Part shown: positions 50,311 to 51,609 of the stretch, one piece after another
Numbering within the stretch: the stretch's first letter is position 1
Layout of the letters: each line of letters starts with the position of its first letter
From: an uncultured archaeon
GTDB lineage: Archaea > Asgardarchaeota > Lokiarchaeia > Sigyniarchaeales > SOKP01
Direction of reading: 5' to 3'
DNA: 64,000 nucleotides
NCBI GenBank assembly: GCA_964486045.1
Contig: CAZALK010000006.1
Coordinates: forward strand, 96,001-160,000
The notes under the pieces: model-generated
The model's input: only the letters and a program-made list of their open reading frames with translations
Databases searched by the model: none
What the model was told of the DNA's origin: nothing
Program-made: the position numbers and the translations under genes

Positions 50311-50549
50311 TTAAATTTGCGGAACATCAGGCTTCATTAATATTAACACTTCTCAATTTTAACGAAAAAAGAGAATCGCACGAGATTGATCATTTTCATA
50401 GTTTGGAATTTTGTCGTGTATTTTTTTATATTTCTTTTCCCATAAAATTAAGTTAAGGTAAAAATCTTTAAATAAGTAAAAGATAATTATCTATATAACA
50501 AACTCTTTAAAAATAACAAAATTTAATAAAATTATAAAAAATTATAAGT

Positions 50550-50554
50550 GGAGG
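50550..50554 (+). promoter_or_regulatory. Shine-Dalgarno site of the histone gene
   Basis: GGAGG 8 nt upstream of ATG 50563. Confidence 0.7.
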
Positions 50555-50562
50555 AAAAAAAA

Positions 50563-50856
50563 ATGGCAGGTTCTGAATATATTAGTTGGAGTCCTATTAG
50601 GCGTCTTATGAAACTATAATAATCGACTGGATTATTTCTTCAAAATAATGGCGCTTTAATCGTTGCTCGTGATGCAGTTAACGAGCTCGTTGAATGGATG
50701 GGTAGTTCCGCTGAGAAACTTACTAAAAATGCTTTAGTTTTAACTAAACACTCTAAAAGAAAGAAAATCACGAGTTTCCTTTAGAATTCCTAAAAAAGCG
50801 TGAAAAATGATATTCTTTTAGCGATTAAATACTTCAAATCAGTTAAAATAAGCTAA
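50563..50856 (+). CDS. Archaeal histone (77 aa after removing two 30-nt introns): join(50563..50614,50645..50774,50805..50856)
   Basis: Spliced product MAGSEYISWSPIRRLMKHNGALIVARDAVNELVEWMGSSAEKLTKNALVLTKHSKRKKITRNDILLAIKYFKSVKIS has histone-fold hallmarks (PI.RLMK..GA..V, H.KRK.I...DI.LA); intact RBS and poly-T terminator. Confidence 0.88.
50615..50644 (+). other. Putative BHB/BHL-type intron 1 of the histone mRNA (30 nt)
   Basis: Central helix TGAA/TTCA, 3-nt bulges ACT and AAA, inner stem AATAATC/GATTATT, outer exon stem; carries in-frame TAA TAA. Confidence 0.8.
50775..50804 (+). other. Putative BHB-type intron 2 of the histone mRNA (30 nt)
   Basis: Central helix CACG/CGTG, 3-nt bulges AGT and AAA, inner stem TTTAG/CTAAA, distal exon stem CTAAAAGAA/TTCTTTTAG; carries in-frame TAG and TAA. 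Confidence 0.82.
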
Positions 50857-50878
50857 TGCGAACTTAAAATTATATATC

Positions 50879-50896
50879 TTTTTTTTTTTTTTTTTT
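50879..50896 (+). terminator. Oligo-T archaeal terminator after the histone gene
   Basis: T18 run 22 nt after the stop codon. Confidence 0.6.
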
Positions 50897-50944: not shown

Positions 50945-51430
50945 TTACTCCCATAATTCAAGAAAATCAAATTCTGAAAATGTGTTAATTCGTGGAAAAT
51001 GCTTTTTATCTTTTGTTATTAAAATAACTTTATTTGAAATTGCTATAGAAGCATTCAATAAATCAAATTGAGGCACTTGCTTCCCACTTTTATCTAAATC
51101 CGCGCAAATTTCGTCATAAATTTTACTAGAATTTGAATCTAATGTTTTTATTTCGGAAAGGTTGCTAATAAAACTATTTAATTTTTTTGCTTCAACAATT
51201 TGTTTCTGTTTAGATTTTAGAGCATAGATGCCGTACCACAATTCACCTGAAGTTATTTGAGTTATTGTTAAATCATTTCCCTGTGATATTAAATTTTTGA
51301 TTTTTCTTTCTACTTTTTCAAATATTTCTTGAATAAATTTTTTTGCCTTTTCAGGTGAACCTTTTGAAATATATTCAGATATAGCATCGAGGTCTAAGAG
51401 AGCGTCGGTAGACCATTTTATGTCAACCAT
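50945..51430 (-). CDS. Chimeric ParE/RelE N-terminus fused to a truncated VapC (PIN) copy
   Basis: First about 40 aa are ParE-like (IKWSTDALLDLDAISEYISKGSPEKAKKF); the remainder is nearly identical to 48953-49390 from KVE onward. Confidence 0.75.
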   Translation of the reverse strand: MVDIKWSTDALLDLDAISEYISKGSPEKAKKFIQEIFEKVERKIKNLISQGNDLTITQITSGELWYGIYALKSKQKQIVEAKKLNSFISNLSEIKTLDSNSSKIYDEICADLDKSGKQVPQFDLLNASIAISNKVILITKDKKHFPRINTFSEFDFLELWE

Positions 51431-51609
51431 TTTTTCATTCTTTCCTTTGCATCTTCATGTGTAAGAAAATTTCCATCTTTAATTTGTTGCTGAGCTTTAA
51501 TAATTCTCTCATTAACATACAATCGATATGTAATTTCTTCTACAGGTAAATCATCAGGAAGAGATTTAATAAAATTTAATACTTTATCTTTTGAAGATAA
51601 TGGTGGCAT
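51418..51609 (-). CDS. Putative antitoxin partner of a ParE/RelE toxin
   Basis: SKDKVLNFIKSLPDD...ITYRLYV...G.FLTHEDAKERM..W; overlaps the toxin start. Confidence 0.7.
   Translation of the reverse strand: MPPLSSKDKVLNFIKSLPDDLPVEEITYRLYVNERIIKAQQQIKDGNFLTHEDAKERMKKWLT

What the first reader, a model, noticed from the sequence alone, without database searches (positions are those of the whole stretch)
50615..50804. The two histone introns differ in sequence but share identical geometry, suggesting a structurally defined mini-intron class
Seen: both are exactly 30 nt with the layout 1-nt (T) + 9-nt arm + 5-nt loop + 9-nt arm + 4-nt helix strand + AA. Both have an AAA 3' bulge and two in-frame stops despite a length divisible by 3, yet their primary sequences are unrelated. 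Intron 2 has CACG/CGTG as central helix and a 9-bp distal exon stem (50753-61/50813-21). Inference: structure is under selection rather than sequence, and the stops stop unspliced transcripts from making an insert-bearing histone. The inserts fall near the alpha1-L1 and L2-alpha3 boundaries. They may derive from tRNA-intron transposition.
Basis: partly seen in the sequence, partly recalled or inferred. Interest (0 to 1): 0.8.

Follow-up and report, generated by a model that had tools for sequence, protein, structure and literature searches.

The report
Thirty-base tRNA-type introns in histone gene
A histone gene of a Loki-type Asgard archaeon is interrupted by two 30-base hairpin inserts with the exact shape that the archaeal tRNA-splicing enzyme cuts. 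The same 30-base design recurs in this genome's tRNA genes, its RNA polymerase gene and several enzyme genes, so the organism very probably has to splice messenger RNAs.

Summary
Window 50615-50644 and 50775-50804 are two 30-nt inserts in a histone gene (ATG 50563, stop 50854-56). Both read 1 nt + 9-nt arm + 5-nt loop + 9-nt arm + 4 nt + AA. Both form a canonical bulge-helix-bulge (BHB) motif. Cutting after the second nucleotide of each bulge gives a product colinear with more than 80 uninterrupted orthologues.

The reading as a "structurally defined mini-intron class" is supported.
- Orthologues and paralogues in this Promethearchaeia (Loki) genus carry the same layout at five codon positions.
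- Orthologous introns show compensatory stem changes.
- Loops vary while stems do not.
- Spliced frames are under purifying selection (dN/dS 0.08-0.14).
- In a coding-aware scan of this genome, strict BHB inserts peak at exactly 30 nt (12 real, 1 decoy).
- The layout also interrupts five tRNA genes, the single rpoA' gene (GHFGH|IELA), a thiolase, an Amidohydro_3 gene (first-reader note: fwdA) and two AIR-synthase-family genes.
- Two EndA paralogues and RtcB are present.

Each of the six independent histone introns has exactly two in-frame stops, more than chance predicts.

Direct RNA evidence is missing. No sequence similarity to tRNA introns was found, so "transposition" stays open.

Earlier notes of this scan report BHB mRNA introns in at least 50 other Asgard genomes. 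I found no paper on them.

The parts
50550..50554 (+). Shine-Dalgarno GGAGG, 8 nt upstream of the ATG
   Evidence: Read from the sequence. Present in all aligned full-length orthologues.
50563..50614 (+). Exon 1: codons 1-17 plus the first base of codon 18 (MAGSEYISWSPIRRLMK + C)
   Evidence: Colinear with uninterrupted orthologues.
50599..50608 (+). 5' strand of the outer (exon) helix of BHB 1. It pairs with 50646-50656 (10 bp with one bulged U).
   Evidence: MFE fold. Duplex energy is -9.6 kcal/mol against a mean of -2.0 in 81 uninterrupted orthologues.
50609..50612 (+). Exon strand of central 4-bp helix 1 (UGAA). It is followed by the 5' bulge 50613-50615 (ACU), with the cut after 50614.
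50615..50644 (+). Intron 1, 30 nt. Inner hairpin 50618-24/50630-36 (7 bp), loop 50625-29, central-helix strand 50639-42 (UUCA). In-frame stops TAA TAA at 50617-50622.
   Evidence: The insert is absent from more than 80 orthologues. It is present in G068 and G019, with changes only in the loop.
50645..50774 (+). Exon 2: completes codon 18 (H) and runs to the first two bases of codon 61. Base 50645 is the third nucleotide of the 3' bulge AAA (50643-45).
50753..50761 (+). 5' strand of the 9-bp distal exon stem. It pairs with 50813-50821.
   Evidence: Read from the sequence; part of the MFE fold.
50769..50772 (+). Exon strand of central helix 2 (CACG). It is followed by the 5' bulge 50773-50775 (AGU), with the cut after 50774.
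50775..50804 (+). Intron 2, 30 nt. Arms 50776-84/50790-98 (7 of 9 paired), loop 50785-89, central-helix strand 50799-802 (CGUG). In-frame stops TAG at 50782-84 and TAA at 50791-93.
   Evidence: Present in G068 and G019. A different 30-nt intron sits at the same site in G007, with helix UACG/CGUA.
50805..50856 (+). Exon 3: third base of codon 61 (R), then NDILLAIKYFKSVKIS and the stop TAA at 50854-56. Base 50805 is the third nucleotide of the 3' bulge AAA (50803-05).
50879..50896 (+). Run of T after the gene; a likely archaeal terminator.
   Evidence: Read from the sequence. Function is inferred, not tested.

Best explanation

Proposed mechanism (inferred from the known enzymology of EndA and RtcB, not shown for this RNA):
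- The transcript folds so that four exon bases pair with four intron bases, flanked by two 3-nt bulges on opposite strands.
- The heteromeric tRNA-splicing endonuclease (EndA alpha/beta) cuts after the second nucleotide of each bulge.
- RtcB joins the exons.
- Only the spliced mRNA encodes the 77-residue histone.
- Unspliced mRNA terminates at the intron's in-frame stops.

Both introns belong to a size-defined class: 1 + 9-nt arm + 5-nt loop + 9-nt arm + 4 nt + AA = 30 nt. This Promethearchaeia genus also carries the class in tRNA genes and in other protein genes. The class is gained and lost between close species. Selection keeps the structure and does not keep the sequence.
For: 1. Exact junctions. 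The canonical BHB cutting rule, with no free parameter, restores codon 18 (CAU, His) and codon 61 (AGA, Arg). The product is colinear and 92-94% identical to uninterrupted orthologues and aligns without gaps to HMfA/HMfB.

2. Same layout elsewhere in the histone family. Eight histone introns at five codon positions fit it.

3. Structural conservation across independent cases. Across 15 independent 30-nt introns, 91% of central and inner helix pairs form, against about 40% in slid registers. Each paired column shows 3-6 pair types.

4. Compensatory changes in orthologous introns and loop-only variation in intron 1.

5. Purifying selection. The spliced frame of intron-bearing orthologues has dN/dS 0.08-0.14 at dS 0.6-1.6.

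6. Genome-wide length peak. Strict BHB inserts lying between coding ORFs peak at 30 nt: 12 real against 1 decoy, with 1-2 at 28, 29 and 31 nt. A looser setting gives 18 against 3.

7. Exon halves are colinear on Pfam profiles for a thiolase, an Amidohydro_3 gene and two AIRS-family genes.

8. The single rpoA' gene is split at GHFGH|IELA by a 30-nt member of the class.

9. tRNAs use the same layout. Removing 30-nt inserts by the same rule turns five mis-called tRNA genes into canonical tRNA-Lys, Ala (two), Pro and Thr. The cell's own enzyme therefore must handle this architecture.

10. The enzymes are encoded: two EndA paralogues and RtcB. Published work assigns Asgard archaea the broad-specificity (alpha-beta)2 EndA (PMC5829648).

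11. Exon codons fit the motif. Intron-bearing alleles use synonymous codons that build the outer exon helix, in histone site 1 and in the thiolase.

12. Not an assembly artefact. The same two introns occur in three separate genome assemblies, and a DNA contig from a public run matches the gene with zero differences.
Against: No RNA data exist for this organism, so excision is not shown.

Neither motif is a strict hBHBh'. In intron 1 two mismatches enlarge the 5' bulge. In intron 2 the outer helix next to the motif is weak and the strong exon stem lies 7 nt away.

The genome has four other intact histone genes, so this gene is not necessarily essential.

Among the three closest two-intron orthologues, dN/dS is 0.25-0.59 on only 6-10 substitutions, which is uninformative. 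In G019 the central helix of intron 2 has only 3 of 4 pairs.

Five or six uninterrupted orthologues also have the strong site-1 exon helix. That helix is therefore not exclusive to intron carriers.
Confidence: 0.88

Rival explanations
1. The interrupted genes are decaying histone paralogues. The inserts would be small palindromic insertions that inactivated them, and nothing is spliced.
For: Four other intact histone genes exist in the genome. dN/dS among the three closest two-intron copies is not clearly below 1. G019 has a weakened central helix in intron 2.
Against: Both copies of this histone subfamily in the genome are interrupted, and their exons are intact. Intron-bearing C12-type orthologues show dN/dS 0.08-0.14 at dS up to 1.6. 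Stems evolve by compensatory changes. The same insert type sits in the single rpoA' gene and in tRNA-Lys(UUU), Thr, Pro and Ala genes. The junctions are exact to the base in all eight cases.
Confidence: 0.04
2. The uniform 30-nt geometry reflects how these introns are made or spread, and not selection for that exact shape. A common generating mechanism such as reverse splicing of excised intron RNA followed by reverse transcription, or another hairpin-inserting process, would fix the size. Only the BHB core would be under selection.
For: The class has the same size in tRNAs and mRNAs, where reading frame cannot matter. As far as is known, EndA measures only the distance between the two bulges, so a fixed 9-bp stem and 5-nt loop is not required by cleavage. 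Gains are recent and patchy: five sites in a 213-nt gene and two sites in rpoA' within one genus. The hairpins of window intron 2 and of the second intron of the C12 paralogue share 18 of 24 bases although they sit 17 nt apart in the coding sequence. There is a weak shared consensus: a 3' bulge AA and a loop ending in UC.
Against: No intron is repeated in the genome, and apart from that one pair the sequences are no more alike than background. Once present, stems are maintained by compensatory change, so selection on the hairpin itself is real. One orthologue has drifted to 31 nt (my reading of the sequences), and 65- and 85-nt inserts occupy the rpoA' site in other species. A preprint on Asgard tRNA introns found no general route of arrival (10.64898/2026.10.13.758758).
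Confidence: 0.35
3. The inserts are skipped during translation (programmed ribosomal bypass, as in phage T4 gene 60 or yeast mitochondrial byp elements), or are read through under an altered genetic code.
For: They are short hairpin inserts with a stop codon directly after the upstream coding part, which resembles gene 60 superficially.
Against: There are no matching take-off and landing codons. The junctions split codons in phases 1 and 2, and only a join at the RNA level restores the conserved His18 and Arg61. TAA, TAG and TGA all occur inside the inserts and also end ordinary genes. The same inserts occur in tRNA genes, which are not translated.
Confidence: 0.01

Closest known systems
BHB intron of the cbf5 pre-mRNA in Crenarchaeota (Watanabe 2002; Yoshinari 2006; Yokobori 2009, PMC2738675)
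   Same: A protein-coding gene interrupted by a short intron with a (often relaxed) bulge-helix-bulge motif. It is removed by a hetero-oligomeric splicing endonuclease. It is gained and lost among related species.
   Different: The phylum (Asgard/Promethearchaeia) and the gene (histone) differ. There are two introns in a 231-nt coding sequence and five positions in one gene family. Size and layout are fixed at 30 nt and shared with tRNA introns of the same genome. Many other genes are affected. Splicing is not yet shown experimentally.
Non-canonical archaeal tRNA introns (Marck and Grosjean 2003; Asgard tRNA censuses, PMC11291895 and bioRxiv 10.64898/2026.10.13.758758)
   Same: The same motif and the same cutting rule. 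In this genome they have literally the same 30-nt architecture, at non-canonical tRNA positions. They are also gained repeatedly at sites where the exon allows the motif to form.
   Different: The host RNA here is an mRNA. The exon half of the motif is therefore built from codons, partly through synonymous codon choice. In-frame stops and reading-frame phase become relevant.
Unconventional HAC1/XBP1 mRNA splicing (Ire1 plus the RtcB/Trl1 ligase) in eukaryotes
   Same: Protein-only, spliceosome-independent removal of a short intron (26 nt in XBP1) from an mRNA. Cuts fall at structured sites, and a tRNA ligase joins the exons.
   Different: The nuclease (Ire1) and its recognition motif (twin stem-loops) differ. 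That splicing is regulated by stress and changes the reading frame. Nothing here shows regulation.

Membership tests
Archaeal BHB (EndA-dependent) introns | [quoted passage not shown] | tested here: met
   Intron 1: UGAA/UUCA with bulges ACU and AAA. Intron 2: CACG/CGUG with bulges AGU and AAA. The central helix is 4/4 paired in both.
Archaeal BHB (EndA-dependent) introns | Flanking helices h (exon) and h' (intron) directly adjoining the bulges (strict hBHBh') | tested here: inconclusive
   Intron 1: the exon helix is 10 bp with one bulged U and adjoins the motif, but the intron helix starts after two mismatches. Intron 2: the intron helix has 2 bp, then 2 mismatches, then 5 bp. The adjoining exon helix is weak, and a 9-bp stem lies 7 nt away. 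These are relaxed forms of the kind that (alpha-beta)2 EndA accepts (PMC5829648).
Archaeal BHB (EndA-dependent) introns | Cutting after the second nucleotide of each bulge yields the functional mature RNA | tested here: met
   The spliced frame is colinear with more than 80 uninterrupted orthologues and restores conserved His18 and Arg61. The same rule yields canonical tRNAs from five tRNA genes.
Archaeal BHB (EndA-dependent) introns | The genome encodes the splicing endonuclease (broad-specificity heteromeric type) and an RNA ligase | tested here: met
   Two tRNA_int_endo paralogues, at C7:36595 and C10:137165. RtcB at C1:512216. I did not examine the L1 specificity loop.
Archaeal BHB (EndA-dependent) introns | Structure maintained by covariation in homologous introns | tested here: met
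   Compensatory changes at B1, B2 and B4 of the site-2 intron. In rpoA', covariation in the central helix and at B3. Loop-only variation in intron 1.
Archaeal BHB (EndA-dependent) introns | Excision observed in RNA (spliced mRNA, released or circular intron) | not testable with these tools
   No run on record as RNA holds this locus. Contigs in runs X22-X24 are uninterrupted genes of relatives.
Programmed translational bypass elements (T4 gene 60, byp) | Matching take-off and landing codons flanking the gap | tested here: not met
   No matching codons. The junctions fall inside codons, in phases 1 and 2.
Repeated mobile elements (MITE-like or introner-like families) | Multiple near-identical copies in the genome | tested here: not met
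   Of the 24 introns taken from this genome, each matches only itself over its full length; other matches are 22 nt or shorter at E of 0.07 or more (blastn-short). Background pairwise identity is about 7-8 of 24, with one outlier pair at 18 of 24.

The most novel reading that the evidence does not exclude
The 30-nt hairpin introns may be an actively spreading intron family, defined by RNA structure, in Promethearchaeia. It would colonise abundant RNAs (tRNAs, histone, RNA polymerase and enzyme mRNAs) wherever the exon can supply half of a BHB motif, perhaps through reversal of the EndA/RtcB reaction followed by copying back into DNA. Host genes would then adapt their synonymous codons to the intron. 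That would be a protein-spliced, prokaryotic counterpart of intron invasion, in the closest known relatives of eukaryotes.
Probability: 0.25. Interest if true: 0.95.

Novelty: new variant of a known kind. Interest (0 to 1): 0.8.

Why it matters
In the library I searched, published endonuclease-spliced introns in archaeal protein genes amount essentially to one gene, cbf5 of Crenarchaeota.

Here a Loki-type Asgard archaeon carries such introns in a chromatin protein (two per gene), in the catalytic RNA polymerase subunit, in enzymes and in tRNAs. All follow one 30-nt design, and gains and losses are visible between species of one genus.

If splicing is confirmed, three things follow:
- Gene callers systematically break or miss such genes, and tRNA finders mis-call the tRNAs.
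- Intron gain, exon-intron co-adaptation and the cost of unspliced messages become directly testable in a prokaryote.

Tried and rejected
Scans and controls:
- A structure-only scan for the 30-nt BHB layout shows no enrichment (1191 hits against 1191 in reversed sequence). For that reason I did not build a covariance model. A structure-only model carries too little information for a 5-Mb AT-rich genome. I used a coding-aware scan with a parallel-pairing decoy instead.
- My first coding filters, with reversed-sequence controls, were uninformative.
- Stop-free 30-nt BHB motifs inside long ORFs show no excess over the decoy (162 against 156). The background is too high to exclude a few.

RNA evidence:
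- No RNA holder is listed for the locus.
- Laying runs X22-X24 showed contigs that follow exon 1 and then continue into an exon-2-like sequence. Their upstream sequence and other differences show they are uninterrupted genes of relatives, so they say nothing about splicing.

Other attempts:
- Single-sequence AlphaFold gave a poor model (pLDDT 59). It was replaced by a run with a 20-sequence alignment.
- A 32-nt candidate in an AAA+ gene (C3:187694-187725) was not confirmed, because the downstream half has no Pfam hit.
- Several low-complexity A/T-rich hits from the scan (for example C1:4008, C12:40655, C4:214162) were left unverified.
- BLAST of the introns against the genome found no repeat family.
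- Translational bypass, altered genetic code, self-splicing introns (too small at 30 nt) and assembly artefact were considered and rejected. The reasons for the first two are given under the rival explanations; the case against an assembly artefact is given under the best explanation.
- Seven literature searches found no paper on BHB introns in Asgard protein genes.

Full report
**What is at the coordinates**

The plus strand carries a small gene with a GGAGG ribosome-binding site (50550-54), an ATG at 50563 and a run of T after the stop. Read straight through, it gives MAGSEYISWSPIRRLMKL**..., then an open stretch, then two more stops.

Removing 50615-50644 and 50775-50804 gives a 77-residue protein, MAGSEYISWSPIRRLMKHNGALIVARDAVNELVEWMGSSAEKLTKNALVLTKHSKRKKITRNDILLAIKYFKSVKIS.
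- It is colinear, without a gap, with uninterrupted orthologues of the same genus at 92-94% identity.
- It is colinear with the best 80 matches in a search of 185,579 species genomes. All 80 are uninterrupted, and most are labelled Promethearchaeota or Promethearchaeia.
- An uninterrupted orthologue aligns gaplessly to the archaeal histones HMfA and HMfB.

**The layout**

Both inserts are 30 nt and read 1 nt + 9-nt arm + 5-nt loop + 9-nt arm + 4 nt + AA.
- The 4 nt pair with four exon bases that lie two bases upstream of the insert: UGAA/UUCA for intron 1 and CACG/CGUG for intron 2.
- This leaves a 3-nt bulge on each strand (ACU and AAA; AGU and AAA).
- This is the canonical bulge-helix-bulge geometry of pre-tRNA. 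There, positions 32-35 pair with the 3' end of the intron, the enzyme cuts after the second nucleotide of each bulge, and the third nucleotide of the 3' bulge is the first base of the downstream exon (established knowledge; Marck and Grosjean 2003).
- Applied without any free parameter, the rule restores CAU (His18) and AGA (Arg61), both conserved in the family.

- The arms pair at 7 of 9 positions in each intron, not 9 of 9.
- The 9-bp distal exon stem 50753-61/50813-21 is real.
- Intron 1 has a 10-bp outer exon helix, 50599-608/50646-656.
- Each insert has two in-frame stops.
- The two sequences share 9 of 30 positions (my count from the sequences).
- In a confident model of an uninterrupted orthologue (pLDDT 86), alpha1 is residues 10-18 and alpha3 starts at residue 61.

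**The histone family in the genus**

The genus has 54 species genomes in the collection.
- The two-intron gene of the window is shared by G068 and G019 only.
- The second copy of this histone subfamily in the same genome (G000:C12) has two other 30-nt inserts, in codon 22 and between codons 55 and 56.
- The first of those is shared with G077 and G061. The second is shared with G077 only.
- G007 has a different 30-nt insert at the site of window intron 2, and G020 has one in codon 63.
- All eight fit the same layout. That makes five positions in a 213-nt coding sequence, against a background of uninterrupted genes.

The opposite is seen.
- Among own, G068 and G019, intron 1 has four variable positions, all in the 5-nt loop. 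None falls in the other 25 positions.
- The more divergent site-2 introns (own C12, G077, G061) show compensatory double changes at three stem pairs: A-U/G-C, G-C/A-U and C-G/A-U. There are compatible one-sided changes at five more pairs, and 37 of 39 cells are paired.
- At site 3, one stem pair changes from U-A to C-G, and the G077 intron has become 31 nt (my reading of the sequences).
- The spliced frames of these carriers have dN/dS of 0.08-0.14 at dS of 0.6-1.6. The genes have therefore stayed under protein-level selection since the intron arrived.
- For the three close two-intron genes there are too few substitutions to judge.

**Is it a class?**

Structure alone is not specific in this 31% G+C genome. 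I therefore took every place where a coding ORF of at least 30 codons stops and another coding ORF continues within 45 nt. For each I asked whether a strict BHB insert of length L would join them in frame. As a control I used a decoy geometry with parallel instead of antiparallel pairing.
- Real hits peak sharply at L = 30: 12 against 1 decoy. At 28, 29 and 31 nt there are 1-2 hits.
- A looser setting gives 18 against 3.
- For four of these hits, the two halves match one Pfam profile in order: Thiolase_N 1-89 then 94-258; Amidohydro_3 1-291 then 305-472; AIRS then AIRS_C; AIRS from position 43.

Following a first-stage note, I found that the only GHFGH motif in the genome, in RNA polymerase subunit A', is followed by a 30-nt insert. 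Its central helix is 4/4 paired, its stem 9/9 and its loop 5 nt, and IELARP follows it.

tRNA genes carry the same thing.
- cmscan shows 30-nt inserts at non-canonical positions.
- These inserts fit the layout.
- Removing them by the same rule converts genes that ARAGORN called tRNA-Stop, tRNA-Pyl or tRNA-Asp, or reported with a different or no non-canonical intron, into canonical 72-76-nt tRNA-Lys(UUU), Ala(CGC), Pro(GGG), Ala(UGC) and Thr(GGU).

Over 15 independent members (6 histone, 5 tRNA, 4 Pfam-checked genes):
- 91% of helix pairs form, against about 40% in slid registers.
- Every paired column uses 3-6 pair types.
- The 3' bulge starts with A in 15 of 15 cases and continues with A in 12 of 15.
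- The loop tends to end in UC.

The class is real and is shared by tRNAs and mRNAs. The length being divisible by 3 is therefore incidental.

**Machinery**

The genome encodes two tRNA_int_endo paralogues and an intact RtcB. Published work assigns Asgard archaea the (alpha-beta)2 endonuclease with the L1 loop that confers broad specificity (PMC5829648). Earlier work linked hetero-oligomeric endonucleases to archaeal pre-mRNA splicing (Yoshinari 2006, cited in PMC2738675).

**Exon co-adaptation**

- At site 1, the window gene and its two-intron orthologues encode Arg-Arg-Leu and Gly-Ala as AGG CGU CUU ... GGC GCU. Most orthologues use AGA AGA UUA ... GGG GCU.
- These codons build the outer helix: -9.6 kcal/mol against a mean of -2.0 in 81 uninterrupted orthologues.
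- Five or six uninterrupted genes also have this helix. That fits either precise intron loss or a pre-adapted site.
- The thiolase repeats the pattern. Carriers (own, G022) use AGC, GAC and GCU, where non-carriers use UCG/UCU, GAU and GCA/GCC. The carrier codons give a 5-bp helix, AAGCG/CGCUU.
- In rpoA', a synonymous Gly codon (GGA or GGG) co-varies with the intron base it pairs with.

**In-frame stops**

- Each of the six independent histone introns has exactly two, 12 in total. The other two frames hold 5 and 3.
- In shuffles of each intron's bases, the mean total is 5.3. The probability of a total of 12 or more is 0.004, and the probability that all six have at least two is 5e-5.
- These introns were found through alignment length and not through their stops, so ascertainment bias is unlikely.
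- Introns in other genes have one stop each.
- A safeguard role is plausible but is inferred.

**Origin**

- Of the 24 introns taken from this genome, each matches only itself over its full length. Pairwise identity over the first 24 positions centres on 7-8.
- The exception is window intron 2 and the second intron of the C12 paralogue. Their hairpins share 18 of 24 bases although they sit 17 nt apart in the coding sequence. Given the palindromic structure and the number of comparisons, this is suggestive only.
- No coding-gene intron resembles a tRNA intron. A shared mechanism is supported, but transposition from tRNAs is not shown.
- The rpoA' site holds 30-nt introns in three species, a 65-nt insert in one and 85-nt inserts in two. 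Most of the genus genomes listed have none.
- Two further species have a different 30-nt intron about 100 nt upstream in rpoA'.
- Turnover within the genus is therefore rapid.

**Rivals**

- Pseudogene decay is contradicted by purifying selection, compensatory change, and the presence of the same inserts in rpoA' and in tRNAs.
- Translational bypass and recoding are contradicted by split codons, the lack of matching take-off and landing codons, the presence of all three stop codons, and the tRNA cases.
- Assembly artefact is contradicted by three separate genome assemblies and by a DNA contig identical over 50450-50864.

What is missing is RNA. No run on record as RNA holds the locus.

**Comparison with what is known**

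- The mechanism and motif are those of archaeal BHB introns.
- The closest published case in a protein gene is cbf5 of Crenarchaeota (PMC2738675).
- The new points are the lineage, the gene, the number of introns per gene, and above all a fixed 30-nt design shared with tRNA introns and undergoing gain and loss within a genus.
- Papers on Asgard tRNA introns (PMC11291895; bioRxiv 10.64898/2026.10.13.758758) do not mention mRNA introns.
- Earlier notes of this scan, which are unreviewed AI notes, report BHB mRNA introns in at least 50 Asgard genomes and several more in this one. The phenomenon has therefore been seen before on other DNA within the scan.

**Verdict**

Confidence that these are endonuclease-spliced introns is about 0.88. 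I class the finding as a new variant of a known kind and score its interest at 0.8.

Noticed in passing
G000:C12:112768-112797 and 112898-112927 (L195:1566-1595 and 1696-1725): The second copy of this histone subfamily in the same genome has two further 30-nt class introns at other codons (22 and 55/56). Both subfamily copies in this genome are therefore interrupted twice. The first intron is shared with G077 and G061, the second with G077.
   Followed up: yes
G000:C13:44101-44130 (L203:202-231); L206, L207, L215, L236, L237, L234, L235: rpoA' is split at GHFGH|IELA by a 30-nt class intron in G000, G017 and G065. The same site holds a 65-nt insert in G025 and 85-nt inserts in G022 and G026, and it is empty in most of the genus. 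G068 and G067 instead have a different 30-nt intron at DEDGL|PIPSG.
   Followed up: partly
L093, L094, L097, L098, L117, L125 (around nt 35-65 of the histone coding sequence): These uninterrupted orthologues keep the GC-rich exon-exon helix (AGGCGCC ... GGYGC) that flanks intron 1 in carriers. This could reflect precise intron loss or a pre-adapted insertion site.
   Followed up: partly
window 50776-50798 versus G000:C12:112899-112921: The hairpins of window intron 2 and of the second intron of the C12 paralogue are 18/24 identical (background about 7-8 of 24) although they lie 17 nt apart in the coding sequence. Only the 4-nt strand that pairs with the exon differs.
   Followed up: partly
G000:C1:527549-527652, C28:21946-22047, C12:104385-104488, C1:626230-626331, C23:44434-44535: ARAGORN mis-calls three of these five tRNA genes (as tRNA-Stop, tRNA-Pyl and tRNA-Asp) and reports a 27-nt instead of a 30-nt intron in a fourth, because of 30-nt introns at non-canonical positions. 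After removal all five are canonical tRNA-Lys, Ala, Pro, Ala and Thr.
   Followed up: yes
G000:C3:186175-186204 (L165:1651-1680): A 30-nt intron splits a thiolase gene just after the active-site motif CASGM. It is shared only with G022. Carriers use a different serine codon family (AGC against UCG/UCU), which builds the outer helix.
   Followed up: yes
L196 (G077:C1, second histone intron): The orthologue of the C12 site-3 intron is 31 nt in G077, with one extra unpaired A between the stem and the central-helix strand. The 30-nt length can therefore drift.
   Followed up: partly
window 50945-51430 (-) and 51418-51609 (-): Two small overlapping minus-strand ORFs (161 and 63 aa) lie directly downstream of the histone gene, arranged like a two-gene cassette. 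I did not analyse them.
   Followed up: no
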